Below, one piece after another: positions 12,030 to 24,176 of a stretch of DNA of 24,176 nt. Source of the DNA: Candidatus Woesearchaeota archaeon (GTDB taxonomy: Archaea; Nanobdellota; Nanobdellia; Pacearchaeales; GW2011-AR1). Every line of letters begins with the position of its first letter. Position 1 is the first letter of the stretch. The position numbers were made by a program, and so were the translations under genes. The notes under the pieces were generated by a model. That model had not been told where the DNA came from. It searched no databases and saw nothing but the letters and a program-made list of their open reading frames with translations. The stretch covers positions 1 to 24,176 of the forward strand of contig CAZHCL010000011.1 in assembly GCA_964530955.1 (NCBI GenBank). Reading direction: 5' to 3'.

Positions 12030-12050
12030 TTTAAATATGTGTTAACACAT
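12030..12050 (+). promoter_or_regulatory. TATA box TTTAAATA (12030-12037) plus 14-bp palindrome ATGTGTTAACACAT (12037-12050), likely antitoxin operator
   Basis: Perfect palindrome between the TATA box and the probable start at 12067. Confidence 0.65.
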
Positions 12051-12066
12051 GTATACACAGAACAAT

Positions 12067-12297
12067 ATGGTGAATATAACTTTGACCGTTCCAGATGAAT
12101 TAAAGAAGAAATTGCAAAGTCATCCAGAGGTTAATTGGAGCGCTGTAATCCGCAAGTCTATGCAGGAGCATCTGAAAAAAATAGCTATAGCTGAAGCAAT
12201 TGCCCAGAAAAGTCAGCTAACAGAATTTGATGCAGAGGAAATAGGCAACTTAATAAAAAGAGAGATTGCTAAAAGACATGGAATAAACAAGGCTTAA
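12067..12297 (+). CDS. vapB: Ribbon-helix-helix (CopG/VapB-like) antitoxin; probable start 12067 (ORF track gives 12049)
   Basis: MVNITLTVPDELKKKLQSHPEVNWSAVIRKSM is an RHH pattern; 3 nt upstream of a PIN gene; TATA spacing favours ATG 12067. Confidence 0.8.
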   Translation: MVNITLTVPDELKKKLQSHPEVNWSAVIRKSMQEHLKKIAIAEAIAQKSQLTEFDAEEIGNLIKREIAKRHGINKA

Positions 12298-12300
12298 TTT

Positions 12301-12723
12301 ATGAAATTAGTTATAGATACAAATATTATAATTGCTGCTATGGTGAAAGATGGACTGGCAAGAAAAATAATCTTTTTTGGAAATGTCGATTTAATATCTC
12401 CTGAATTTACTATGGAAGAAGTATATAAACACAGAGATATCATACTCGACAAGGCTCATTTTACTGAGGAAGAATTCAGAATCTTATTTTTGACTATTTT
12501 AGGCAGAGTTAAGATAATCCCCAAATCCAGATATATCTCTTTTTTAAGGGAAGCCGATAGTTTGATTGGAAAAATAGATTATAAAGATGTGCCTTTTCTT
12601 GCTCTTTCTTTGGCCGTAAGAAATGATGGAGTCTGGAGCGATGATAAACATTTCAAAAAACAGAACAAAATCAGGGTTTTAACTACAAAAGAAATAATAG
12701 GTAGCATTCAAAAAATTTCTTGA
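12301..12723 (+). CDS. vapC: PIN-domain ribonuclease toxin (VapC-like)
   Basis: MKLVIDTNIII start; acidic tetrad candidates D6, E(TMEE), D(YKDVPFLAL), D(WSDDKHF). Confidence 0.92.
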   Translation: MKLVIDTNIIIAAMVKDGLARKIIFFGNVDLISPEFTMEEVYKHRDIILDKAHFTEEEFRILFLTILGRVKIIPKSRYISFLREADSLIGKIDYKDVPFLALSLAVRNDGVWSDDKHFKKQNKIRVLTTKEIIGSIQKIS

Positions 12724-12727
12724 ATTT

Positions 12728-13588
12728 TTAAGCGGCATTTCTTATTCTATCAAGGACGCTCGTTTGTGTGTATTGGAGTATTGCGTTTAAAACGTCCAGG
12801 TCAACAATGTCTCGAGGGTCGTCTTTTTTACCTTCTTTCTCTCTTTTTTTCATATGCTCTTTTTTGACTTCAAATAAATACTTTGGATTGGCAATGCTTA
12901 TTTTTGTTCCTTCTAGGCAAAGCTGTATTGGTTGAAAGCTGGCAAGAGGGAGAGTTATTCCTTCTTTATTGGACACAATATATACTTCTGACTGGGAGAC
13001 TAATCTTTCGCCTGCTGTGAACTTGTATCCATCTCTAGTTACTATATTATTTTGAGAATCCTTATAATGGTGGACAAATAAGTCGAAGTAATCTCCTATT
13101 CTGTGCCCTTTTACATTTGCATTTTTCATTATTCTAAGCCTGTGTGAAGTATGCTTTTCCCTTTTCCAAGTTTCTCTTCCTTCTCTTATTTGTTTTGGAG
13201 TTATTGGGTGGGCAGCATCAACTTTAATGCCTCCTCCTATTGAAGCAGTGGAAGTTATTTGGTAGATACCCATTCCGTTTTCTTCAGTTTTTGCAGCAAT
13301 TGTCTCTAGATCCTGCTCCATACATGTGTAATGAATAACTCCTGAGCTATCTCGGTAAAACCCATCTACTGGATTTTTTAAGTGTAGGGAATATAATTCC
13401 AGACTTTCTTTGTCTCTTTCTGAGTATAGTTTAGTTAAAAATTGTATTGCCAAACCCCCGCTAAGTATTAATGGGGCATTTTGCATGCATCTAAAACTAT
13501 CAATTACTCTCCTTTCCAATTCAGCCACTTTTTCGGGAGAAATATGTCTGAACTCTCTTGGATGCTTATAACCCAGCGCAAGCGTCAT
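12728..13588 (-). CDS. Nucleotidyltransferase-fold protein (AbiEii/DUF1814-like), catalytic DxD apparently degenerate (286 aa)
   Basis: ILSGGLAIQ motif, C-terminal NPKYLFEVK and PRDIVDLDVL resemble this superfamily; expected R.T.DID is replaced by RDSSGVI. Confidence 0.55.
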   Translation of the reverse strand: MTLALGYKHPREFRHISPEKVAELERRVIDSFRCMQNAPLILSGGLAIQFLTKLYSERDKESLELYSLHLKNPVDGFYRDSSGVIHYTCMEQDLETIAAKTEENGMGIYQITSTASIGGGIKVDAAHPITPKQIREGRETWKREKHTSHRLRIMKNANVKGHRIGDYFDLFVHHYKDSQNNIVTRDGYKFTAGERLVSQSEVYIVSNKEGITLPLASFQPIQLCLEGTKISIANPKYLFEVKKEHMKKREKEGKKDDPRDIVDLDVLNAILQYTQTSVLDRIRNAA

Positions 13589-13723
13589 GTAATATGAAAT
13601 AAACTCATATTCTTAAACCTTATACCTTCTTTTCACTACTGCAATATGAAACTTGGCTAAACCTAAGGTTTATAAAAGCCAGCTATTTAGAATCATTATC
13701 GTATTGTTTTAACTAAACATATC

Positions 13724-13730
13724 AGGAGGT
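13724..13730 (+). promoter_or_regulatory. Strong Shine-Dalgarno AGGAGGT
   Basis: 3 nt upstream of ATG 13734; TTTATAAA box at 13669-13676. Confidence 0.7.
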
Positions 13731-13733
13731 AAA

Positions 13734-13907
13734 ATGGCAAAAGAAAAAATGGAGTTTTATGATGTGAAGAGCAAGAAGAAGTTTTCCACTGAGGATTATA
13801 GACTAGTTGAGAAAGGCGGAAGGAACTTCGCTGTTGCAAAGTCACAATCTGGACCTCATGAATGCTGGCGAGTTGTTTCAAAGGAAACTGCAGCTAAGAT
13901 TAAGTAA
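13734..13907 (+). CDS. cc1: CC1-like small archaeal chromatin protein (57 aa), not in ORF track
   Basis: MAKEKMEFYDVKSKKKFSTEDYRLVEKGGRNFAVAKSQSGPHECWRVVSKETAAKIK; the FYD.K.K..F.T..Y..VEK....FAVAKS pattern matches crenarchaeal CC1 as I recall it; SD and TATA upstream, T-rich terminator downstream. Confidence 0.85.
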   Translation: MAKEKMEFYDVKSKKKFSTEDYRLVEKGGRNFAVAKSQSGPHECWRVVSKETAAKIK

Positions 13908-13914
13908 CGAGTCT

Positions 13915-13967
13915 ATTAATTTTTACTTTTTTATTATTTTTTGTTGGTTGATTTTTTGTGATTTTAT
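13915..13967 (+). terminator. T-rich archaeal terminator-like tract
   Basis: Several oligo-T runs immediately after the CC1-like stop. Confidence 0.45.
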
Positions 13968-14001
13968 ATTCTTATTAGCTTTTGCGGTTGGTGACGAAAG
14001 G

Positions 14002-14030
14002 TTTATATATCTGGTAAGTCATGCCTTACC
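14002..14030 (+). promoter_or_regulatory. TATA box TTTATATA (14002-14009) and inverted repeat GGTAAG-N6-CTTACC (14013-14030), likely AbrB operator
   Basis: The inverted repeat fills the space between the TATA box and ATG 14031. Confidence 0.65.
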
Positions 14031-14300
14031 ATGGTAGAAATAGAGACTGCAACCGTAAGCTCAAAGGGGCAGATTGTAATTCCTGCAAGTATGAGAAAGG
14101 ATATAAAAGAAGGAGATAGATTTTTAATTATTAAAGACAAGTCCAGCTTTCTCCTTAAGAAAGCTGATGATTTAGATGAGAAGTTCAAAGAGGACTTAGA
14201 ATTTGCCAGAAGAACTGAAGAGGCATATAAAAGACATGAAAGAGGGGATTTCAAGAGAATGTCTGCCAACGAGTTTCTTGAAGAACTCAAAAAGTGGTGA
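14031..14300 (+). CDS. AbrB/MazE/SpoVT-family DNA-binding protein (orphan antitoxin-like, 89 aa)
   Basis: TATVSSKGQIVIPASMRKDIKEGDRFLI is the AbrB-fold signature; acidic/aromatic C-terminal tail typical of antitoxins. Confidence 0.9.
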   Translation: MVEIETATVSSKGQIVIPASMRKDIKEGDRFLIIKDKSSFLLKKADDLDEKFKEDLEFARRTEEAYKRHERGDFKRMSANEFLEELKKW

Positions 14301-14359
14301 ATCTATTTTTTTCACTCCAATAATTGTTCCATAAGCCTTAAAAACTTAAATGGATAGAG

Positions 14360-14665
14360 ATGAATATGGCAAAGAAAGATGAAATTGAAAGAATAAAGAA
14401 TAAGATATTACCTATTTTAAAAAAACATAAAGTGATTAAAGCAGGTATATTTGGTAGCTATGCGAGAGGGGAGCAGAAAAAGAAAAGCGATGTTGATATC
14501 CTTGTTGAAATAGATGATAATGAAATGAGTTTAATGGGATTTATCAGATTAAAAAATATATTGGAGAAGGCTATCAGAAGAAAAATTGATTTGGTAGAAT
14601 ATAGTTTAATAAGAAAAGAATTACGTCAAAATATACTTCATGACGAGATTCCTATTTTAAGATGA
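14360..14665 (+). CDS. mntA: Minimal nucleotidyltransferase (MNT) antitoxin
   Basis: GSYARGEQKKKSDVD = GSX10DXD; IDLV near the C-terminus; ATGA overlap with the HEPN gene. Start may be 14366. Confidence 0.93.
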   Translation: MNMAKKDEIERIKNKILPILKKHKVIKAGIFGSYARGEQKKKSDVDILVEIDDNEMSLMGFIRLKNILEKAIRRKIDLVEYSLIRKELRQNILHDEIPILR

Positions 14666-14997
14666 AAAGAGAATACAAACTTTATTTGAATGATATAACT
14701 AATTGTATTAAACAAATTGAAGGATACATGAAAGGTGTTTCTGAAGAGGAATTTAGAAAGAATGAATTGCTCCAAGATGCAGTTATAAGAAGGTTTGAGA
14801 TTATCGGTGAAGCCAGTAGGAATATTCCCAGAGCATTAAAAGAAAAAAACAGACATGTACCTTGGTTCGATATGTCACAATTCAGAGATTTAATTGCTCA
14901 TGGATATTTTGAAGTTAGCTTAAATAAAGTTTGGAAAGAGTTTAAGAATGAACTTCCTAAGATAAAAGAAGCAATGAAAAATATAACTTTGATTTAA
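14662..14997 (+). CDS. hepT: HEPN (DUF86) RNase toxin
   Basis: QDAVIRRFEIIGEA and RDLIAHGY = RX4HXY. Confidence 0.93.
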   Translation: MKREYKLYLNDITNCIKQIEGYMKGVSEEEFRKNELLQDAVIRRFEIIGEASRNIPRALKEKNRHVPWFDMSQFRDLIAHGYFEVSLNKVWKEFKNELPKIKEAMKNITLI

Positions 14998-15148
14998 TCT
15001 TATTTGCAAAGTATAAATTTCTATTAAAATTAACACGAACTTTAAATATTTATTAATCTGTCAGTAAAAAATTTGCTCTTCTTTTATATCTGCTAAATCA
15101 GAGATATTAGTTACTCCACAAGCATTAAAATGACATGCCAAGAAAGCA

Positions 15149-15156
15149 TTTAAATA
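15149..15156 (+). promoter_or_regulatory. TATA box TTTAAATA for the giant gene (probably leaderless transcript)
   Basis: 27 nt upstream of ATG 15184, preceded by purine-rich AAGAAAG. Confidence 0.6.
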
Positions 15157-15183
15157 TCTATTTTTACTCTACAAATTGGAAAG

Positions 15184-18100
15184 ATGGTGCATAAAAGGTT
15201 TATCAAAAAAGGTGGTAAAAGTTATGGTCCCTATTACTACGAAAGCTACAGAGAAGATGGAAAGGTAAAGAAAAAATATATTGGGACAAGTCCTCAAAAA
15301 AATAATTTTAGCGTTGATTTTTCCCAAATTAAATCAGTTACTCCACAAATTTTAATTGTTCTTTTAATCATTGCTGTTGCTTATTTTGGTGTTTCGCATT
15401 TCATTACTGGGAAAGCAATAAGTGATGGAACATCAGCAGATAATTCTGCTCAGCAAAATTCTGTTGACCAGAATAATGCACCTGCAGACACTACAGGAAA
15501 TTCTGCAACTTCTGCTCAGAGTTCTGACAGCAATTCTGGAAGTTCGGATTCTGGAAATCTGACAACTGGTGGAACTGCTGATACAACAACTTCTCCAGCA
15601 AATTCAGATTCTGGTTCAACTGGTCAAGGAACAGCAACAAATGGAGCAACAGATAACTCTTCAAATCAGCAACAAGAGCAGGCTCCCGTTTCTCAAGAAA
15701 ATAATACGCCTACTAATCAAACAGTCAATGTTCCAGAAGAAAATTCATCTTTGAATCAAACTATTACTAATCAAACTATTCCAAATGAAACAATAATAAA
15801 CCAAACTATAACTAATGAAACTTCTGCAAATAATGAGTCAAATCTAACTTTGCCTAATCAGACAATTGTTAATCAAACTTTAACAAATGAAACTTTTTCA
15901 AATAATACAATAATTAATGAAACACTGACAAATCAAACAGCCGTAAATGAAACAATAATAAACCAAACTATTACTAATCAGACTCAGGTAAATTTAACGC
16001 TTGAAAACTTGAGCATACTGGCAGTAATTCCAACTATAAGGATTGCTGCAAATGGTAGTGCGCAGGTAACATTATCTGATTATTTTTCTGGGGCTGAAAG
16101 TTATTCTTTCAATGCTCTAAATATCAGCTCTGCAATAAATGGTGATGTTTTGACTTTGACTCCTGATTCTGGATTTAGGGGAGCGAGGAAAGGAACAATA
16201 ACTGCTTATTCAGGAAACGATTCTTTGCAGAGTAATAGTTTTGACATATTTGTTTCTTCAGGAGCAATAAATATTCAGACAATAAGAAACAAGATAAAAC
16301 TTGGAGAGCCTGTTAAATGGACTAAGAACGTAACTCTTGACAATCCTCAACAGCTTTCTCTTGAATTGCCTAGTGATGCGAGCAACATAACTGTAACTAA
16401 AACTGATTCCTCGCAAGGCTCTAGTTCAAAGAGTATTACAGGAAACGTTATATCTGATTCCAATGGCAATAAAAAATCATTAAGCTTTTTAGATAGATTA
16501 TTTAATTTTTTCAGGCTTTTCCTTCTTACTGGAAGAGCAATTTCAGATACTTCCCAAAATCAGGACATAGCAAATAATACTACAAATGCCACTATTCAGG
16601 TTACTCTTAATGATAATGCAACCCAATACACTGTTGAATATACAACTCCTTCTCCAGTTTCAACTGAAAAAGATATCTTGGGAGGGAAACAAATGTCTAT
16701 TTCTGCTCCTGAAGAATTAAACTACACTGATGTAATTGCTAATACAAATATTTCTGATGCAAGCAAGATTGCTGATGCAGGAACAATAAAGATTTATTGG
16801 CATAATTATGATCCTGCAGCTGTTCAGGCTGCGGAAGATAAAGATGCTGCTGCTTTGCAGGCATTGAAAGAGCAGGCAAAGCAAGTCTCTGAAGTTGCAA
16901 ATTCTACCGTAGTTGAGGATGTCAATCTTGGAAGCAATGAAACACTTCCAACAGTAATTAACTCTACATTTGATAATGCAACTTCTGATTTAGGTAATGT
17001 TACAGATAATAGCACAGCAGATAATTTCTCTTCAAATGTATCTTCAAGTATTTTGACAGGAAATGCAATTCTTGATGGTGATGTTGCAAATTCAACAGCC
17101 ATAGAAAATATGACTAATGATAGCAATGTAACAGACAACGCAACATTAAATGCAACTAATAATACTAACGTAGGTGTAAGCACAAGCGTTCTTACAGATG
17201 CCAATGGAGGAAAGTATATTCTTCAGGAAGTTCCATTTGATGCCTATGATACAAACGGAGATGGGAATATTGATTATGTTGAATGGGTAGTTCCTCACTT
17301 TTCAAACCAGACCTATGATATAATATTAATCAGTAAGGCAGAGCATCTTGATGAAAATAAGACTTTCATTGAGGATGTTTATACTCAGGTTCAAGCTTTA
17401 GATAATGTAACTGCTGAAATACCTGCAGGAGATTACTTAAGAGTAAGTTTCCAGCAGAACTTGACAAACAAGAACGATATTACTTTCTACGGAGCAAGCA
17501 ATTCAACTGATAACTCAAGCTCAACAATAGAGGTTTATGAGAAAGACCAAAACAGAACTATCGCATTATTTGATAACGTAAGCTCTTTCAACAAATATAG
17601 AATAACTTTGGATAATTTAAGCAGTGATGATAATTATTCTCAAGGCACTTTTGATTTGCTGATTAAAGGTAATCCAGTTGACTTTGACTATGTTGTTGAC
17701 CCTTACACAGATACGGGTGCTTTGGCCCAGAATGTCAATGATTGCGGAATATTGAATACTAGTAATGCGGTTTATACATTAATTAATAACGTAAGCACAA
17801 CATCTACTTGCTTCAATATAACTGCCAATAATATAACTTTTAATGGAGCTGGATTTACGGTCAATTATTCAAGTGTAGGCGCAACTTCAGATAGTGGCTT
17901 TTCTATCAGTGGTTACAATTTTACTACGGTAAAGAATACGAAGTTTTTATTTTCATCTATTACTACTCCTAATACTGGGATTGCATTCCTTTTGGCAGGA
18001 TCAAACAATGGAACTTATGTTAATGATACTTTTTTAAGGACAATTCAGGGCACTGCTCCTTTCTTTTCTTTATCATCTTCATCACAAAATAATATAAGTT

Positions 18101-21100
18101 ATAATTTCGCCTTTGGTAACGGGTATACGAATCAATTTATTAATGATTTCGGTTCAGGTTCGCTTAATATTCTTGCTAATAATAATATAACTTATTCAGG
18201 AGCTAATTCGGCTGCCGGAATTCGTTTAGCAGCTGGAGGGCAAAATCAAATATTCAATAATCAACTTTATTCAACAGAAAGTTTAAGTCCATATGCGATA
18301 TTTTTAATAAATGGAAATGATGGGTCTATTATATATAATAATAGTATAACTCTTACCGGTGGATCTGGAGGAGCGATTACAACTCAAGGTGCAAATAATA
18401 TTACTATGTTCAATAACACTATAAATTGCCTTGCGACTGCTACTGGAATTAGCATAGGAACATCAACAAATATTACTCTTTCACAAAATCTACTTAATAC
18501 AACTCAAGGCTTAGGAATTATTGTTTCAGGAACAGCTATTAATCAGCTAAACCAGACAATTGACTCTTTAAACTTAGCCGAAGGACTGCCCGTAAATTAT
18601 ACTTTTGGATTAAATAATTCTCTTATTCAGAATATAAATAGTTCTACCTATGGGCAGATAATCTGTGCATCTTGTAATAATGTAACTTATAATAATATTA
18701 CTATGTATAATGTCGATGGAATTTCATTGATTAATTCAACTAGTATGGTTGTAAATAATTCTAATTTTACTTCTAACAGAGGATATGGTGTATACATAAC
18801 TGCTGGAGCAAATAACATTACGGTTTCAAATAATAATATCTATGAATATCTGAATGCTAATTTATACGGTGTTTACACTGGCTGGACTTCTAATACGGTT
18901 ATACCCAATAATATTTATATAACTGGAAATAACATTACTTATAATACTAGTGCTAGTGCTAGTGGTGGCTCGGTTTACTTTACTGCTCCCATTACTAACT
19001 CCATTGTTAGTAATAATAACTTATCGGTCAGAGGTTCTGGTACAAAATATGGATTCTATTTGGCTCAGCCCTCTGTAATAGCGAATAACATTTCTATTTT
19101 GTCTAATATCTTTTCTACTGGAGGCATAGAGATGAGCGGGGGTGCTCCCAATAGTGTTTTTGATAACAATCAGCTTAATAATATCAGTGTTCCATATGCT
19201 TTTGATTTTTCTGGTATCTTTGATAACGATACAATAACTAACAATCGTATAACCAGCGCCAATAGTGCTCGTGTTATTGATTTTAGGGGGGGTGCTGCTT
19301 CAGGTCTTTATGTTGCTAACAACACGATTACTACTATTGCAGATATTCCTGCTATGTATGTTGAAAGTGCAATCACAAATAGTAGGTTCATAAATAACAC
19401 TATTACTTCTGTTGCGACTACCCAAAATCCTTTTACTTTTGGTGTGGCTGGAAATTCAAACGTTACTTTCACTGGACTGAAAATTTATGGGAGCGTTAGC
19501 AATGCTATTGATAGTTTTAAGGTTGCTTTTGCAAGTAATTTCACAATGACTGACAGTGTATTAAATACTTCATCAACCCATAGTGCTTTTTTAATCAGTA
19601 ATTCTGTTCCTTGGGGATATTGGAATTTCACAAATGTAACTGAAGCAGATGGAACTCCTATTAATATTTCTTGGGGCGGGGGAGCGAATGGAACTGCAAA
19701 TAATATATATTATCTTGATGCAAACGCAAGCTATCCAACGGGAACGCCAGCGGTCAGTGCTAACATAACTGGATATAGAAATGATGGCCTCCTTTGGTTT
19801 AGTAATCTTACTGACTCAAATGGATTAATTCAAAGGCAGACTGTATTGCAATATAAACTTACAAACAACTCTGCAGGAAGTAGTGTTTATACATGGTATT
19901 CTAATTATACTGTGAATGGAACTGATGTTTATGGAAATGGAGACGCTCATTCTATCAATATCACGGGAAATATGGTGGGTTCAAGTGCAGTTACATTAAG
20001 CTTTGTTAATCTGACTAGTGGATGTGTAAATATATCTAATCCAAATGCTTATATTTTACTTACTGCGAATATAACTTCAACTGGAACTTGTCTTACAGTG
20101 CTTGCGAATAATGTAACTATTGACGGGGGAGGATATACAATTAATTATTCTAGCGCTGGTGGTTCAATAGGATACGGAATTAATGTCACTAATTATAATT
20201 TTACAACAATAAAAAATGTCAAAATTACTGAAGGGACTTCGACGACTAATAGTAAGCCAGCGATATCTTTATCAAATGCATACAATGTAACCATACAAAA
20301 TAATACTCTCTTAACGAGCGGTCTGTTTTCAGATGGAATTGATATGGCTAATAATAAATATGCCCTTATCACAGGTAATATTATTAATACAACTACTGGA
20401 GGTGCTAGTTCTGGAGGTTATGCAGTATTTATGAGCTGTAGTAGTACTAACCATAATATTTCAGGTAATTCGATATTTACTTCGAGCAATGGAAATAGCA
20501 TACGTTCTATATACGGTAGTTGTGGTGTCAGTGGAGGAAATAATCTCTTCATTGGATATAATAATATAAGTTCATATGACTATCAAATTTATGTTCATTC
20601 TGGTAACACTATAATTGGAAACAATTTAACTGATGCTGCTCCATCTGGTGCAAGAGGATTCTCAATTGATTCGAATAATATTCTGATTAATAATTCTTGG
20701 TCTATTCCAAATGCATATGATACTTTTGCATATCCATTTCAAATAACTGCGGGTAATAATACTCTTACTGGAAATAAATTTTCTGACCCTAATGTTATTA
20801 CTTTCACTTTGACTGGAACAACTTTGGCGAATCTTAATAATACCTTAGACTCTTCAAACTTAATAGGCGGTATTCCAATTAATTTTTCATTTGCACTGAA
20901 TAATGCAGTTATTCAAAATGCCAACAGTTCGACATATGGCTCTATATTTTGCGTATATTGTAATAATGTTACTTATAATAACATCACCATGTTCAATGGA
21001 GATGGAATATACTTGATTAATTCATCCAACTCAGTTGTAAGTAATTCTAATTTAACAACCAATAAGGGGTTTGGAGTATACATTTCTGTTAACGGGTTTA

Positions 21101-24100
21101 ATAATACTGTTGTAAATAATACTATTGCTACAAAAACAAACAATTTATTGTATGGTGTTTATTCATCTTCTTCTAATTATACTAGTGTTATTGGGAACAA
21201 CATTACTACAAGTACGACTGGTTCATCTGCCGTCTCTTTAACTACTTCTTTATTTGGAATTATTAACAATAATAATATTACCGCAACAGGCTCTGGGACT
21301 GGGCTGTATGGTTTGGGAATTAGTTTACTTACAGCATCAAATAATAACACTATGAGTGGGAATATTATAAAGACCACGAGTTCTGCAGCTCCGCCTATCT
21401 TTTTATCCTCTTCAAATAATAATATTGTCTTAAACAATTCATTGACTTCTACAGGTACTAATGGATTTGGAGTAGATATACAATCGTCTTCCAACAACAG
21501 CATTATAAATAATACTATATCTTGTTCTAATAGCAATTCAGCAGGCATTTTGTCTCAGGGTGTATCTACAAATGATAGAAATGTACTTACTAATAATTCA
21601 ATAGCAATGATGGGTATTCAGTCATACGGAATACAACTTTTACAATCAAGTAGCAACACCATCAGTCAAGGTTCAATAAGAGTTAGTTCAATTGCACAGA
21701 ATGGAATTTATATTCAATCTAGTACTAATGATTTGATTTCAGGTGTTAATGTAATAATCAATTCTACTTCTGGAACGGGAGCTATTCAGACTAGCGGTTC
21801 GAGTAGTTTTTTCATTAATGATTCATACTTAAACTCTTCAAATTCAGCAACTGGTGAGTTTTACATATCTGCTGGAGTTGCTTCAGGAACTTGGAATTTC
21901 ACAAATGTAAGTCGCTTAAATGGTGGTCTTATTAATGTCACTTGGACTGGTGGTTCAAAGGGTACTTTGAATTATATGTGGTGGGTAAGTGCGAATACAA
22001 CTGTGAATCAGACGAAAGGTCCTTTGGCGGGAGTAAATGTGAGTGCTTGGAATGTGAACAATGTCAGTATGTTTAGCGAGATATCTGGCAGTTTGGGGAA
22101 TATTTCTAGTTATCCTTTACTTCAGTATACGATGACAAATAACAGTGCTGGAGGTACTGTAACTACATATTATTCGCCTTATACCCTTAATGCAACAAAG
22201 AGCGGTTATAATACTTATTCAAATGCAACTATTAATTTGACTACAAATTATCTTGTAAATGCAGGATTGTTCGACATTGTTCCTACATTGCAGTTTGTAT
22301 CTCCAACTGATACAGATAGTTCTAATCTAACTAGAAACAATATATTTGCAAACGTTAGTGTGACTGATACTACATTTGTAAATGTAACTCTTAATCTTTA
22401 TAATGCGACAAGCAATGCATTAGTTAATAGCACAACTTCAACAAGTCCTATTTATTATGTTAACTTTATTGGTCTCGGTGATGGCACTTATTATTTAAAT
22501 GCAACTGCTGCTGACTTGGCTGGAACTCTAAACTCAACTGAAACTAGAAGGATTACCGTGGATACGGTCATGCCTACGATAAATGTAACCTCTCCTTTAG
22601 CCCAGAATTATACTACAAATAATATTACAATTAATTTCACTTCTGCTGACTTTAATGGAATAAGTGCCCGATGGTTTTACAATGGAACTACAAATATTAC
22701 ATATTCTGGGGTAACAAGTGTTATTGCGCCTGAGGGCAGTAACAATTTTACATTTTATTCAAATGATACTTTCGGTAATTTGAATTCTACTTCAGTTACT
22801 TTCTTTGTTGACTCCATAATTCCGCTAATACAGTTTGTATCTCCTACAGATACAAATGCTTCTCAGCTTTCTCGTAGTAATATATTAGTAAATGTAACTG
22901 CTTCAGATACCAATTTAAAAAATATTACTATATTTCTTTACAATTCAACTAATAATTTAATTAACACTACAATTAGCACAACATCTCCTTCATATATTAA
23001 CTATGTCGGTCTTTTAGATGGGAATTATTCCTTCAATTCTACGGTTTATGATACTCTTGGAAATAAAAATAGTACTGAGACTAGAACGATAACTCTTGAT
23101 ACAATTGGACCTAATATAACAATAAATTATCCTTTAAATACTACAACGCACTTTTCTGCAGTAATATCATTCAATGCAACTGCGATTGATTTGCAAAGAG
23201 GAATTTCTTCATGTGTTTACAGCCTTGATAATGTAGCGAATGTAACTATGAGCGCATTGAATACAACATTCTTTAATTATTCTTATTCTGGAATAGGTCA
23301 TGGATTGCATAATGTTACTGTTTCATGTAATGATACATTGAATAACTGGAATTCTGCTTCAATGTATAATTTCAATGTAAACTTGCTTGACTTGACTATC
23401 CATAGTGTCACTTTGACTAATCCAGTATACCCTAATTCAACTTTAATATCTATTAATGTATCAAATGATGGTGCGCCTAATGCAACGAACATAAATGTAA
23501 GCTGTTATCTTGATAATGTTTTGTTTGATTCTTCTTTAATAAGCCAGATAAATGGCGGGCAGGATTACATTACCAATTGTACGAGAACGTTTTATTCAGG
23601 AAACTTCACATTAAATGTAACTCTTGACCCTCTAAATGTAATTCCTGAAAGCAATGAGACTAATAACGCCAATATAACTACTGTAAACGCAGTTGTTGCA
23701 ATAAGAAATGAAAGTCATAATGGACTGATAACTTCATTGCAGACAGTTAATTATAATGAAAATGTAAACTTGACTTTGAATATTCCAAATGGAACAATAA
23801 ATACGACCCGTGCGGGATATAATTTGAGTGCTGTTTGGGCAAACATTACTTTACCTAATGGAGCAATAAATAAACTCTACCTATCTGGAAATAGTGCTGG
23901 AGGAATATGGAATGCTACCTATATCGCTTCAACATTGCTTGGAAATTATTCAGTTGTTTATTCTGCGAATCTTACAAATGGATTTAACTTTGTTCAGAAT
24001 GTTACAACCAGTTTCATTGTTAAAAATACCTCTATAAGTATTGTTGCTTCTCAAAGTGTAAACACGACAAATATAATCCCTATATCTGGTTTGATTAGAT

Positions 24101-24176
24101 TGTTCAATGGGACATCTCTAGAAAATCTTACAAATAATGGATTCGTAATTAAATTGAATAATGTAACTGTAAGTTC
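15184..24176 (+). CDS. Giant cell-surface glycoprotein/adhesin-like protein, 3'-partial (at least 2997 codons); not in ORF track
   Basis: Read codon by codon: no stop from ATG 15184 to the window end. Layout: basic N-terminal domain (MVHKRFIKKGGKSYGPYYYESYREDGKVKKKYIG), TM about 15349-15399, low-complexity linker, NxT repeats, core shared with the 1455-aa protein (about 16285-17703), two beta-helix modules, Ig-like repeats (about 22273-23385), CARDB-like domain (DPLNVIPESNETNN, about 23386-23670). Confidence 0.95.
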   Translation, partial: MVHKRFIKKGGKSYGPYYYESYREDGKVKKKYIGTSPQKNNFSVDFSQIKSVTPQILIVLLIIAVAYFGVSHFITGKAISDGTSADNSAQQNSVDQNNAPADTTGNSATSAQSSDSNSGSSDSGNLTTGGTADTTTSPANSDSGSTGQGTATNGATDNSSNQQQEQAPVSQENNTPTNQTVNVPEENSSLNQTITNQTIPNETIINQTITNETSANNESNLTLPNQTIVNQTLTNETFSNNTIINETLTNQTAVNETIINQTITNQTQVNLTLENLSILAVIPTIRIAANGSAQVTLSDYFSGAESYSFNALNISSAINGDVLTLTPDSGFRGARKGTITAYSGNDSLQSNSFDIFVSSGAINIQTIRNKIKLGEPVKWTKNVTLDNPQQLSLELPSDASNITVTKTDSSQGSSSKSITGNVISDSNGNKKSLSFLDRLFNFFRLFLLTGRAISDTSQNQDIANNTTNATIQVTLNDNATQYTVEYTTPSPVSTEKDILGGKQMSISAPEELNYTDVIANTNISDASKIADAGTIKIYWHNYDPAAVQAAEDKDAAALQALKEQAKQVSEVANSTVVEDVNLGSNETLPTVINSTFDNATSDLGNVTDNSTADNFSSNVSSSILTGNAILDGDVANSTAIENMTNDSNVTDNATLNATNNTNVGVSTSVLTDANGGKYILQEVPFDAYDTNGDGNIDYVEWVVPHFSNQTYDIILISKAEHLDENKTFIEDVYTQVQALDNVTAEIPAGDYLRVSFQQNLTNKNDITFYGASNSTDNSSSTIEVYEKDQNRTIALFDNVSSFNKYRITLDNLSSDDNYSQGTFDLLIKGNPVDFDYVVDPYTDTGALAQNVNDCGILNTSNAVYTLINNVSTTSTCFNITANNITFNGAGFTVNYSSVGATSDSGFSISGYNFTTVKNTKFLFSSITTPNTGIAFLLAGSNNGTYVNDTFLRTIQGTAPFFSLSSSSQNNISYNFAFGNGYTNQFINDFGSGSLNILANNNITYSGANSAAGIRLAAGGQNQIFNNQLYSTESLSPYAIFLINGNDGSIIYNNSITLTGGSGGAITTQGANNITMFNNTINCLATATGISIGTSTNITLSQNLLNTTQGLGIIVSGTAINQLNQTIDSLNLAEGLPVNYTFGLNNSLIQNINSSTYGQIICASCNNVTYNNITMYNVDGISLINSTSMVVNNSNFTSNRGYGVYITAGANNITVSNNNIYEYLNANLYGVYTGWTSNTVIPNNIYITGNNITYNTSASASGGSVYFTAPITNSIVSNNNLSVRGSGTKYGFYLAQPSVIANNISILSNIFSTGGIEMSGGAPNSVFDNNQLNNISVPYAFDFSGIFDNDTITNNRITSANSARVIDFRGGAASGLYVANNTITTIADIPAMYVESAITNSRFINNTITSVATTQNPFTFGVAGNSNVTFTGLKIYGSVSNAIDSFKVAFASNFTMTDSVLNTSSTHSAFLISNSVPWGYWNFTNVTEADGTPINISWGGGANGTANNIYYLDANASYPTGTPAVSANITGYRNDGLLWFSNLTDSNGLIQRQTVLQYKLTNNSAGSSVYTWYSNYTVNGTDVYGNGDAHSINITGNMVGSSAVTLSFVNLTSGCVNISNPNAYILLTANITSTGTCLTVLANNVTIDGGGYTINYSSAGGSIGYGINVTNYNFTTIKNVKITEGTSTTNSKPAISLSNAYNVTIQNNTLLTSGLFSDGIDMANNKYALITGNIINTTTGGASSGGYAVFMSCSSTNHNISGNSIFTSSNGNSIRSIYGSCGVSGGNNLFIGYNNISSYDYQIYVHSGNTIIGNNLTDAAPSGARGFSIDSNNILINNSWSIPNAYDTFAYPFQITAGNNTLTGNKFSDPNVITFTLTGTTLANLNNTLDSSNLIGGIPINFSFALNNAVIQNANSSTYGSIFCVYCNNVTYNNITMFNGDGIYLINSSNSVVSNSNLTTNKGFGVYISVNGFNNTVVNNTIATKTNNLLYGVYSSSSNYTSVIGNNITTSTTGSSAVSLTTSLFGIINNNNITATGSGTGLYGLGISLLTASNNNTMSGNIIKTTSSAAPPIFLSSSNNNIVLNNSLTSTGTNGFGVDIQSSSNNSIINNTISCSNSNSAGILSQGVSTNDRNVLTNNSIAMMGIQSYGIQLLQSSSNTISQGSIRVSSIAQNGIYIQSSTNDLISGVNVIINSTSGTGAIQTSGSSSFFINDSYLNSSNSATGEFYISAGVASGTWNFTNVSRLNGGLINVTWTGGSKGTLNYMWWVSANTTVNQTKGPLAGVNVSAWNVNNVSMFSEISGSLGNISSYPLLQYTMTNNSAGGTVTTYYSPYTLNATKSGYNTYSNATINLTTNYLVNAGLFDIVPTLQFVSPTDTDSSNLTRNNIFANVSVTDTTFVNVTLNLYNATSNALVNSTTSTSPIYYVNFIGLGDGTYYLNATAADLAGTLNSTETRRITVDTVMPTINVTSPLAQNYTTNNITINFTSADFNGISARWFYNGTTNITYSGVTSVIAPEGSNNFTFYSNDTFGNLNSTSVTFFVDSIIPLIQFVSPTDTNASQLSRSNILVNVTASDTNLKNITIFLYNSTNNLINTTISTTSPSYINYVGLLDGNYSFNSTVYDTLGNKNSTETRTITLDTIGPNITINYPLNTTTHFSAVISFNATAIDLQRGISSCVYSLDNVANVTMSALNTTFFNYSYSGIGHGLHNVTVSCNDTLNNWNSASMYNFNVNLLDLTIHSVTLTNPVYPNSTLISINVSNDGAPNATNINVSCYLDNVLFDSSLISQINGGQDYITNCTRTFYSGNFTLNVTLDPLNVIPESNETNNANITTVNAVVAIRNESHNGLITSLQTVNYNENVNLTLNIPNGTINTTRAGYNLSAVWANITLPNGAINKLYLSGNSAGGIWNATYIASTLLGNYSVVYSANLTNGFNFVQNVTTSFIVKNTSISIVASQSVNTTNIIPISGLIRLFNGTSLENLTNNGFVIKLNNVTVS
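15754..16014 (+). repeat. Pentapeptide N-x-T/S-x-x coding repeat (18 sequons)
   Basis: NQTIT NQTIP NETII NQTIT NETSA ... NQTQV NLTLE NLS with 15-nt periodicity (one 4-aa unit). Confidence 0.9.
17734..22272 (+). repeat. Two tandem about 760-aa parallel beta-helix modules (about 17734-20010 and 20011-22272)
   Basis: Paired landmarks: CGILN/CVNIS (17743/20023), CFNITANN/CLTVLANN, CASCNNVTYNNITM/CVYCNNVTYNNITM (18664/20950), WNFTNV (19621/21892). Confidence 0.85.

What the first reader, a model, noticed from the sequence alone, without database searches (positions are those of the whole stretch)
15184..15399. At least 3000-aa surface protein begins with a basic, aromatic, nucleic-acid-binding-like cytoplasmic mini-domain
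Seen: MVHKRFIKKGGKSYGPYYYESYREDGKVKKKYIG precedes the single N-terminal TM. From memory this three-stranded pattern resembles the N-termini of IS1634-type transposases (Y..ESYR..GKV..R) and DUF6788-like GPYWY...GK...Y proteins, which are presumed DNA binders; no catalytic transposase domain follows. Inference: a domesticated DNA/RNA-binding module on the inner face of a giant adhesin. Together with the twin-HTH giant, both large surface proteins here may link the cell exterior to nucleic acid, for contact signalling, chromosome tethering or co-translational capture of their own long mRNA.
Basis: partly seen in the sequence, partly recalled or inferred. Interest (0 to 1): 0.75.

Follow-up and report, generated by a model that had tools for sequence, protein, structure and literature searches.

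The report
Conserved inner-face module on giant adhesins
The first 35 residues of this roughly 5,400-residue surface protein of a tiny DPANN archaeon form a very conserved, basic, tyrosine-rich three-stranded sheet on the inner face of the membrane; the module heads hundreds of unrelated giant surface proteins, resembles the front end of IS1634 transposases, and usually comes with a DNA box in its own promoter, so it probably binds nucleic acid, though this is untested.

Summary
The ORF starting at 15184 opens with the quoted basic, aromatic 34-mer, then an 18-21-residue linker and one TM helix (about aa 54-74).

The segment is not a loose signal n-region. It is a discrete module, modelled by AlphaFold2 as a three-stranded sheet (pLDDT 90-96). 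It sits at residue 1 of 1,684 protein clusters. It occurs in 59 of 401 sampled genomes of the phylum (Pace-/Woesearchaeota-type) and in 22 of 27 of the window's own family. Its carriers are mostly 600 to over 4,000 aa and have unrelated adhesin domains.

No Pfam or NCBIfam model covers it. DUF6788 and DUF1678 score only below threshold. A profile-profile test does link it to the N-termini of IS1634 transposases from the same class (86% probability, E 5e-6, above 150 shuffled controls).

Rare small proteins consist of the module, a linker and a C-terminal TM only, so the module can work in the cytoplasm without a passenger.

A DNA box (GTT-N5-AC, consensus TAGTTGYACTACAAA) lies between the TATA box and the start codon of 38 of 77 module genes, and again near +190 in 19 of 77. 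It is found at about 1-3% of other gene starts. The window has three copies.

Best reading (about 0.4): a membrane-tethered, transposase-related nucleic-acid-binding module that acts on its own gene. Binding was not tested. The scan had not found this module before on other DNA.

The parts
15106..15128 (+). Distal copy of the module-gene DNA box (core AGTTACTCCACAA, 15109-15121). It forms a 23-nt imperfect direct repeat with 15333-15355.
   Evidence: the 13-mer occurs only twice in the window, with 0 expected in 100 shuffles. It matches the motif class found at 45 of 77 module genes.
15149..15156 (+). TATA-like box TTTAAATA, 28-35 nt upstream of the start codon.
   Evidence: Read from the sequence. 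The order TATA, about 6 nt, box, 10-20 nt, ATG recurs in many loci. The role as promoter is inferred, not mapped.
15161..15175 (+). Promoter-proximal, degenerate copy of the box (TTTTTACTCTACAAA), between the TATA-like box and the ATG.
   Evidence: Leave-one-out PWM score 9.2 against a 99th-percentile control score of 6.5. It lies at -21 to -23, the modal position of the upstream copies.
15184..15288 (+). N-terminal module, aa 1-35: basic, Tyr-rich, predicted three-stranded antiparallel sheet (strands 2-9, 12-24, 27-35).
   Evidence: pLDDT 93-96 in the 110-aa model; 1,684 clusters; the match starts at residue 1 in about 142 of the best 150; similarity to IS1634 N-termini.
15289..15348 (+). Polar, variable linker (aa 36-55).
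   Evidence: the linker has a median length of 16 aa (7-71) and a mean net charge of +2.9 across carriers. AF2 gives it low confidence.
15333..15355 (+). Downstream copy of the DNA box inside the coding region (core 15336-15348, +153 from the ATG). Here it encodes S-V-T-P-Q, just before the TM.
   Evidence: PWM 17.1. In other loci the downstream copy lies in other reading frames and protein contexts, so it is a nucleotide-level element.
15349..15405 (+). Single transmembrane helix or signal-anchor h-region (about I56-I74).
   Evidence: Hydropathy peak 2.63. AF2 helix 54-69, pLDDT about 85. 98 of 102 sufficiently long carriers have a TM within 150 aa of the module.
15403..15420 (+). Post-TM motif ITGKAI ([TS]G-x-[AVSTI]). 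It is a possible signal-peptidase or processing site.
   Evidence: the motif is present within 25 aa after the TM in 108 of 166 carriers. Background is 6.5% per 20-aa window, and 22 of 151 ordinary N-terminal hydrophobic ORFs of this genome have it.
15184..24174 (+). Window part (2997 aa) of the giant surface-protein gene. It holds a Ser/Thr/Asn-rich stalk, right-handed beta-helix repeats and Ig-like domains. It continues beyond the gap to about 5,400 aa, with a HerA/DUF87-type P-loop near the C-terminus.

Best explanation
Residues 1-35 are an autonomous, folded cytoplasmic module: a three-stranded, strongly basic, tyrosine-rich beta-sheet. A short basic linker and one TM helix hold it on the inner face of the membrane. 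It is evolutionarily related to the N-terminal domain of IS1634-family transposases. In DDE transposases the N-terminal region is usually the part that recognises the element's DNA ends. This is general knowledge about the class and has not been shown for IS1634.

The module has become the standard head of giant surface proteins in Pace-/Woesearchaeota-type DPANN archaea. I propose that it binds nucleic acid. The most likely target is the GTT-N5-AC box that sits between the TATA box and the start codon of module genes, and again about 190 nt into the coding region.

The proposed sequence of events is as follows. The module is made first, so it can fold and bind its own gene while translation goes on, as transposases do when they act in cis. 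The TM then takes the complex to the membrane. The result would be feedback on transcription, since the box occupies the site where archaeal repressors block polymerase. It could also keep a 16-kb gene and its long mRNA at the translocon.

Shown here: the fold prediction, position, topology logic, distribution, similarity to the transposase N-terminus, and the gene-specific DNA box. Inferred: that the module binds nucleic acid, that the box is its target, and the consequence.
For: - Fold and conservation.
- Always at residue 1, then a basic linker, then a TM.
- It heads unrelated passengers (Big_9, He_PIG, cadherin-like, LamG, beta-helix, S8 peptidase).
- It heads the two largest ORFs of this genome, while other exported proteins use ordinary signal peptides.
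- Small proteins that are only module + linker + C-terminal TM exist. P0173 is on 18 contigs up to 257 kb, P0022 on 30 contigs, and L045 has a 79-aa gene with no giant gene beside it. A few carriers have no TM..
- hhalign against IS1634 N-termini: 86% probability, E 5.1e-6, above all 150 shuffled controls.
- The DNA box is found in 38 of 77 module genes at -62..-5 and in 19 of 77 at +120..+260 at a 1% control threshold. It is found at 6 of 222 other gene starts in the same loci (two of these are further module genes) and 6 of 697 in this genome.
- The window has three copies.
- The downstream copy lies in different reading frames.
- The top Foldseek rows are a Sulfolobus nucleoid protein that binds DNA through beta-hairpins, and arm-type integrase domains. 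These are not significant.
Against: - No binding test of any kind was possible.
- Fold searches are not significant (Z at most 2.6), and a three-stranded meander is a common arrangement.
- The DNA box could be the site of an unrelated regulator of adhesin genes.
- Half of the module genes lack a detectable box, including the C9 paralog of this genome, which scores 6.4 (borderline).
- The near-identity of the module across paralogs is unusual for sequence-specific regulators.
- The linker can be as short as 7 aa, which holds the module very close to the membrane.
- IS1634 ends in the same class do not consistently carry the box.
- DNA binding by the IS1634 N-terminus is itself an assumption.
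- Many carriers also have a C-terminal TM anchor, which fits an N-terminal export signal as well.
Confidence: 0.4

Rival explanations
1. Cytoplasmic docking or clustering module. The exposed edges and tyrosine faces of the small sheet pair with each other or with a conserved cytoplasmic partner (cytoskeleton, secretion ATPase, ribosome or SRP). This would gather the giant adhesins at one site, for example the host contact. The small tail-anchored paralogs would act as scaffold or competitor.
For: - Sequence conservation is extreme across paralogs and orders, as expected for one invariant partner.
- A 35-residue sheet has no core of its own and carries about 6.8 aromatic residues.
- Free-standing module + TM proteins exist.
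- Structural rows include strand-swapping or dimerising sheets such as COMMD-like proteins and UBP, at non-significant Z.
Against: - No conserved neighbour gene was found. The best upstream cluster is in 8 of 58 loci and is a ribosomal-protein operon.
- This reading does not explain the module-gene-specific DNA box or the similarity to a transposase N-terminus.
Confidence: 0.25
2. Extended signal or topogenic leader for very long exported proteins, an archaeal analogue of ESPR, YSIRK or KxYKxGKxW leaders. The folded, highly positive N-terminus would fix the N-in orientation and pace or route Sec translocation. It may then be cut off at the [TS]G-x-[AV] site.
For: - The module is always at the extreme N-terminus, directly before a hydrophobic segment.
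- It is associated with the longest exported proteins.
- The same head sits on unrelated passengers.
- Many carriers have a C-terminal TM anchor plus a basic tail, so the N-terminal TM need not be the anchor.
- The post-TM motif is found in 65% of carriers.
Against: - Module + TM proteins with no passenger, and a few carriers without a TM, exist.
- Ordinary n-regions are not folded domains.
- The sequence models for ESPR and the like gave no hit at E up to 1.
- This reading does not explain the DNA box or the transposase similarity.
Confidence: 0.2
3. Juxtamembrane lipid-binding patch. The basic and aromatic sheet lies on the anionic inner leaflet and stabilises the anchor of a very heavy ectodomain.
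For: The composition (+6.7 net charge and about 19% aromatic residues) and the short linker fit an interfacial position.
Against: - Position-specific conservation, including an invariant G-P-Y turn, exceeds what interfacial binding needs.
- TM-less carriers exist.
- There is no explanation for the DNA box.
Confidence: 0.07

Closest known systems
N-terminal domain of IS1634-family DDE transposases (NCBIfam NF033559)
   Same: About 40 residues at the extreme N-terminus share the pattern M-x-[FHY]-x-[RK]-[RK]..G..Y.Y..S.R..GK[VI]...Y[IL]G. hhalign of 24 modules against 9 transposase N-termini from the same archaeal class gives 86% probability and E 5.1e-6 over 40 columns.
   Different: No DDE catalytic domain follows; a TM helix and a giant ectodomain follow instead. 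The module has an invariant G-P-Y turn that the transposases lack. The NF033559 model itself does not hit the module. The window's genome has no IS1634 transposase.
Pfam DUF1678 (PF07913) and DUF6788 (PF20586), both of unknown function
   Same: The module aligns to a central stretch of both profiles (DUF1678 positions 32-78, DUF6788 positions 44-77). 8 and 5 of 24 members respectively hit at E below 1. The C9 paralog reaches 24.9-25.2 bits for DUF1678.
   Different: The window copy scores 12.6-13.6 bits against cut-offs of 25 and 27.2. No DUF6788 hit over the cut-off was found in 301 genomes of the phylum, and the only DUF1678 hit over its cut-off was G000's own C9 paralog. Neither family describes a head of giant membrane proteins.
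Membrane-bound one-component regulators (ToxR, CadC, TcpP)
   Same: The order of parts is the same: an N-terminal cytoplasmic putative DNA-binding domain, one TM, then an extracytoplasmic part. A candidate operator sits in the gene's own promoter.
   Different: Those regulators use an OmpR-type winged helix and a small sensor domain. Here the domain is a 35-residue beta-sheet, the ectodomain is a giant adhesin, and DNA binding is unproven.
Extended signal peptides of very large bacterial surface proteins (ESPR of autotransporters, KxYKxGKxW and YSIRK leaders)
   Same: They are conserved, basic and aromatic N-terminal extensions before the hydrophobic core of the signal, found on the longest exported proteins and shared by unrelated passengers.
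   Different: There is no sequence-model match. Those leaders are about 25 residues and are not known to fold or to exist without a passenger. They are bacterial.
SPEARE giant proteins of DPANN (Hamm et al. 2019, PMC6642349)
   Same: The whole gene fits that type: a giant adhesin-like ectodomain, a TM and a cytoplasmic C-terminal P-loop/ResIII-like region.
   Different: The paper does not describe this N-terminal module. The module is not tied to that tail, since five other genomes have it on giants without a DUF87 hit.

Membership tests
Pfam DUF6788 (PF20586) | Score at or above the curated gathering cut-off (27.2 bits) | tested here: not met
   The window module scores 12.2-13.6 bits. The best relative scores 18-19 bits. 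No hit over the cut-off in 301 genomes of the phylum.
Pfam DUF1678 (PF07913) | Score at or above the curated gathering cut-off (25 bits) over the 196-position profile | tested here: not met
   The window module scores 12.6-13 bits and covers only profile positions 38-74. The C9 paralog is borderline at 24.9-25.2 bits.
IS1634-family transposase (NF033559) | N-terminal beta-strand module of the M.F.R...G..Y....S.R..GK type | tested here: met
   hhalign A1 against A3: 86% probability, E 5.1e-6, score 27.8 against at most 21.9 in 150 column-shuffled controls.
IS1634-family transposase (NF033559) | DDE catalytic domain; whole-protein score of at least 100 bits | tested here: not met
   No NCBIfam or Pfam transposase hit on the 2997-aa part or the 2419-aa tail. 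No NF033559 match anywhere in the genome.
Sec-type signal peptide or signal anchor | Positively charged n-region followed by a hydrophobic h-region | tested here: met
   The module and linker are strongly positive. The hydrophobic stretch is about aa 56-74 and is modelled as a helix.
Sec-type signal peptide or signal anchor | Cleavage by signal peptidase after the h-region | not testable with these tools
   A conserved [TS]G-x-[AVSTI] motif follows the TM in 65% of carriers. No cleavage predictor or proteomic data were available.
ESPR / KxYKxGKxW / YSIRK extended signal peptides | Match to the family's sequence model | tested here: not met
   Scans of aa 1-80 against all of Pfam-A and NCBIfam at E up to 1 returned none of these. 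That both libraries hold these models rests on my knowledge.
SPEARE-type giant DPANN protein | Giant extracytoplasmic adhesin region, a TM, and a cytoplasmic C-terminal P-loop/restriction-like domain | tested here: met
   The tail ORF has DUF87 (E 5e-10), HerA_C, TrwB_AAD_bind and ResIII hits at tail aa 1972-2133. The description is from PMC6642349. The tail lies outside the window.
ToxR-like membrane-bound transcription regulator | OmpR-type winged-helix DNA-binding domain at the cytoplasmic N-terminus | tested here: not met
   No such Pfam hit. The AF2 model is an all-beta meander. Only the order of parts is alike.
Sequence-specific DNA-binding domain with a cognate site | Direct binding of the module to the GTT-N5-AC box | not testable with these tools
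   Only co-occurrence is shown: the box is at 45 of 77 module genes against about 1-3% of other gene starts.

The most novel reading that the evidence does not exclude
A DNA-binding head borrowed from an IS1634-type transposase has become the common cytoplasmic handle of DPANN giant adhesins. The nascent module would bind boxes in its own promoter and about 190 nt into its own gene. It would then be carried to the membrane by the TM that follows. Each giant gene would thus be physically tied to the membrane where its product is exported, and would be shut off or tuned by its own product. This would be a transposase-style cis action turned into gene-to-membrane coupling, with the small tail-anchored paralogs as free regulators.
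Probability: 0.2. Interest if true: 0.85.

Novelty: new variant of a known kind. Interest (0 to 1): 0.62.

Why it matters
DPANN archaea live attached to other cells, and their giant surface proteins are the prime candidates for that attachment. Almost nothing is known about how these proteins are made, placed or controlled.

This module is the one part that hundreds of otherwise unrelated giants share. It is small enough (35 residues) to synthesise and test directly. It also comes with a candidate DNA target.

If it binds that target, it would give the first regulatory handle on host-attachment genes in Pace- and Woesearchaeota. It would also be a clear case of a transposase DNA-binding head being reused in a membrane protein.

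If it turns out to be an export leader, it would be the first archaeal counterpart of the extended signal peptides of bacterial giant adhesins.

Either way, it is a reliable sequence tag for finding the 5' ends of giant surface-protein genes in fragmented metagenomes.

Tried and rejected
- Known domain by sequence: Pfam, NCBIfam and PHROGs gave only sub-threshold hits. The PDB sequence profile search gave nothing below E 0.16. tblastn against plasmids gave nothing at E up to 10. IMG/VR viral contigs gave no relative. The ESM Atlas gave only a 0.86 lead to a Nanobdellota cluster with 16% DUF6788.
- Known fold: Foldseek against the PDB gave a best E of 0.77. VIA-align gave Z at most 2.6, both wide and as a second look. 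I do not read a function from these.
- Conserved partner gene: none was found. The best upstream cluster is in 8 of 58 loci and is the L7Ae-S28e-L24e operon. The window's own upstream genes are toxin-antitoxin pairs.
- Obligate link to the HerA-type tail: rejected.
- Conserved RNA element or coding artefact for the module: rejected by the codon-position analysis. Rfam found nothing in 14700-15700.
- The DNA box as a relic of IS1634 terminal repeats: one element (L125) carries a similar stretch in its inverted repeat and L124 shares a 9-mer, but most do not. This is inconclusive.
- The two box copies as target-site duplications or recombination sites: within-locus similarity at variable positions is only weakly above permuted pairs (0.558 against 0.484, 107 of 5000). 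Not supported.
- Small tail-anchored form in the sampled genomes: not found among 401, so it is uncommon.
- Literature: no paper holds DUF6788, DUF1678 or the motif strings. The SPEARE paper does not mention the module.
Full report
**1. What is at the coordinates**

The window is contig C11:1-24176 of a 761-kb, 34.5% G+C genome in 26 contigs. Related records are titled Pacearchaeota, Woesearchaeota or Nanoarchaeota.

Residues 36-55 are polar. Residues 56-74 are hydrophobic. I-T-G-K-A-I follows at 15403-15420.

The ORF is cut by a 100-N scaffold gap at 24177. The next ORF (L001:3-7262, 2419 aa) opens with the same 18 residues that close the window part, so the two are one gene of about 5,400 aa. 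Its tail carries DUF87/HerA, TrwB and ResIII-type P-loop hits. This is the SPEARE design described by Hamm et al. (PMC6642349). That paper does not mention the N-terminal segment.

**2. The segment is a discrete, widespread module**

A second giant gene of the same genome (C9; at least 2,208 aa, LamG and Ig domains) starts with the same pattern.

Distribution:
- A six-frame search with aa 1-45 found the module in 59 of 401 genomes sampled from the phylum and in 22 of 27 of the window's own family. There are one to three copies per genome, always at the start of the open frame. One of the 59, G360, is an unpublished genome. Only that tally rests on it.
- The median open frame is 1,434 aa, and 47 of 72 are at least 1,000 aa. 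The median for all ORFs of 100 aa or more in this genome is 181 aa.
- In this genome the module heads the two largest ORFs. Other large exported proteins have ordinary short signal peptides.
- A profile of 24 modules (A1) found 1,684 cluster representatives at E up to 1e-3 among 1.84 billion. In about 142 of the best 150 the match starts at residue 1.
- 272 loci were confirmed among GTDB species representatives.

Conservation and architecture:
- Seven residues are invariant (M1 K12 G15 P16 Y17 Y19 Y32).
- Codon positions 1, 2 and 3 are 72%, 73% and 49% identical, and the invariant residues use all synonymous codons. Selection is therefore on the protein.
- 98 of 102 sufficiently long carriers have a TM within 150 aa. 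The median linker is about 16 aa with net charge +2.9. The module has net charge +6.7 and 6.8 aromatic residues in 35.
- After the TM, [TS]G-x-[AVSTI] occurs in 108 of 166 carriers, against a 6.5% background.
- What follows is unrelated from one carrier to the next: Big_9, He_PIG, cadherin-like, LamG, beta-helix/NosD and S8 peptidase domains.
- Some carriers also have a C-terminal TM with a short basic tail. Others have only the N-terminal TM.

**3. Fold**

AlphaFold2 on the 46-aa alignment gives a three-stranded antiparallel sheet (strands 2-9, 12-24, 27-34). pLDDT is about 90 over residues 1-30. On 110 aa the module reaches pLDDT 93-96 and residues 54-69 form a helix.

Fold searches give nothing significant:
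- Foldseek's best E is 0.77. The hit is the Sulfolobus nucleoid protein UBP, which binds DNA through beta-hairpins (PMC12141716).
- VIA-align gives Z at most 2.6 in both modes. UBP and arm-type integrase domains are tied with cystatins and enzymes.

I take from this only that the fold is a common small meander.

**4. Family tests**

- DUF6788: the window copy scores 12-14 bits and relatives at most 19, against a cut-off of 27.2. No hit over the cut-off in 301 genomes.
- DUF1678: the window copy scores 13 bits. The C9 paralog is borderline at 24.9-25.2 against a cut-off of 25.
- NCBIfam, PHROGs, PDB sequences, plasmids and viral contigs gave nothing.

NF033559 finds such transposases in 15 of 301 genomes of the same class. 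Nine of their N-termini show the pattern M-x-F-x-R..G..Y....S.R..GK.....Y.G. hhalign of the module alignment against them gives 86% probability and E 5.1e-6 over 40 columns. The score is 27.8, against a mean of 8.5 and a maximum of 21.9 for 150 column-shuffled controls, and 8.6 for the reversed alignment.

The module therefore shares this head with IS1634 transposases, but it has no catalytic domain and is not a transposase.

A 134-aa protein in another genome (L141) also matches, at 90.9%. A Fic protein's N-terminus (L139) matches only weakly, at 22.6%.

**5. Evidence that the module works on its own in the cytoplasm**

The protein database holds small proteins that are module + polar linker + C-terminal TM and end within a few residues of the helix. 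The TM often contains a conserved Asp.
- P0173 (97 aa) was seen on 18 contigs, the longest 257 kb.
- P0022 (104 aa) was seen on 30 contigs.
- Other examples are P0178, P0179, P0181, P0035, P0197, P0057 and P0175.
- In L045 a 79-aa gene of this kind stands after a ribosomal-protein operon, with no giant gene beside it.

A few carriers have no TM at all.

These forms argue against a mere signal n-region. They do not exclude that the head of the giants is cut off after export. If it were cut at the [TS]G-x-[AV] site, the product would have the same layout as the small proteins.

**6.

In the window the 13-mer AGTTACTCCACAA occurs twice, at 15109-15121 and 15336-15348. Nothing is expected by chance.

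The same kind of sequence turned up as an upstream/downstream repeat in other loci. The pattern GTT[AG][TC]N[CT][CT]AC[AT] gives 59 sense and 17 antisense hits within -200..+400 of 80 module genes, against 1.7 expected from its density elsewhere in the same loci.

With a leave-one-out weight matrix and a 1% threshold taken from 1,267 control windows:
- 38 of 77 unique module genes have the box at -62..-5.
- 19 of 77 have it at +120..+260.
- 45 have either and 12 have both.

Among other gene starts it passes in 6 of 222 in the same loci, two of which are further module genes, and in 6 of 697 in this genome.

The upstream copy usually follows a TATA box by about 6 nt and precedes the ATG by 10-30 nt, often with a GAGG between. 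By the usual archaeal spacing this places it between the TATA box and the transcription start. That placement is inferred, not mapped.

The window also has a degenerate copy there (15161-15175), after TTTAAATA at 15149-15156.

The downstream copies lie in different reading frames and protein contexts: before, inside or after the TM. The constraint is therefore on the nucleotides.

Further checks:
- The C9 paralog has only a borderline copy.
- Similarity of the two copies within a locus is weakly above permuted pairs (p about 0.02, not corrected for relatedness).
- IS1634 ends do not consistently carry the box.
- Rfam finds nothing here.

**7. Reading**

The positive-inside rule, the passenger-less forms and the fold model place a folded module on the cytoplasmic face. 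Its kinship with a transposase N-terminus and the gene-specific box make nucleic-acid binding the best single explanation (about 0.4). The gene's own promoter and early coding region are the likely target. The module emerges first during translation, so action in cis, as known for transposases, would be natural.

Nothing here shows binding, and the box may belong to another regulator.

The rivals are:
- a docking or clustering module (0.25);
- an extended export or topogenic leader analogous to ESPR and KxYKxGKxW (0.2);
- a lipid-binding patch (0.07).

I did not re-test that.

**8. Novelty**

No model, name or paper that I could find covers this module. The kinds it resembles are known: a reused transposase head, a membrane-tethered regulator, an extended leader. 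I therefore rate it a new variant of a known kind. It is of real interest to DPANN biology because it is common, compact and directly testable.

Noticed in passing
window 24120-24176 and G000:C11:24279-24335 (L001:3-60): The residues on the two sides of the 100-N scaffold gap repeat (NLTNNGFVIKLNNVTVSS). The gap is therefore an assembly join with overlapping ends, and the gene is continuous at about 5,400 aa.
   Followed up: partly
window 15403-15420 and carriers in A2: The [TS]G-x-[AVSTI] motif a few residues after the TM is in 65% of module carriers but in only 22 of 151 ordinary N-terminal hydrophobic ORFs of this genome. It may be a processing site specific to this leader type.
   Followed up: partly
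L002:3395-3700 (C9 paralog), L021, L023, L024, L028, L031, L033, P0007, P0010, P0013, P0019: Many carriers, but not the window's gene, share a conserved domain right after the TM, of the type TGK..LDI...Y..GE.I.G.L.L.LK.GELIP. It has no Pfam hit.
   Followed up: no
L045, L048, L084, L090, L092, L105, L107, L114 (upstream of the module gene): In 8 of 58 loci the module gene lies directly downstream of the ribosomal-protein genes L7Ae, S28e and L24e and runs in the same direction.
   Followed up: partly
window 12049-14997: The genes upstream of the giant are toxin-antitoxin type: a PIN domain (12301-12723), a MazE-like gene (14031-14300) and a nucleotidyltransferase/HepT pair (14360-14997).
   Followed up: partly
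L047 (Pacearchaeota contig NZCQ01000020.1): Two divergently oriented module genes sit about 2.2 kb apart, and each has the DNA box in its promoter.
   Followed up: no
L139:418-1314 (-): A 298-aa Fic/DOC protein next to a 202-aa module protein begins with a similar strand pattern (KKYFYLVHSYREGKSVKKKQFYLG). hhalign to the module is weak (22.6%).
   Followed up: partly
window about 17236-17292 (aa 685-702 of the giant): An EF-hand-like calcium loop (DTNGDGNIDYVE) gives sub-threshold EF-hand hits. A like loop is in P0003.
   Followed up: no
P0173, P0178, P0179, P0181, P0022, P0035, P0057: The small tail-anchored module proteins share an Asp inside the C-terminal TM helix, two-thirds of the way along it.
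   Followed up: no
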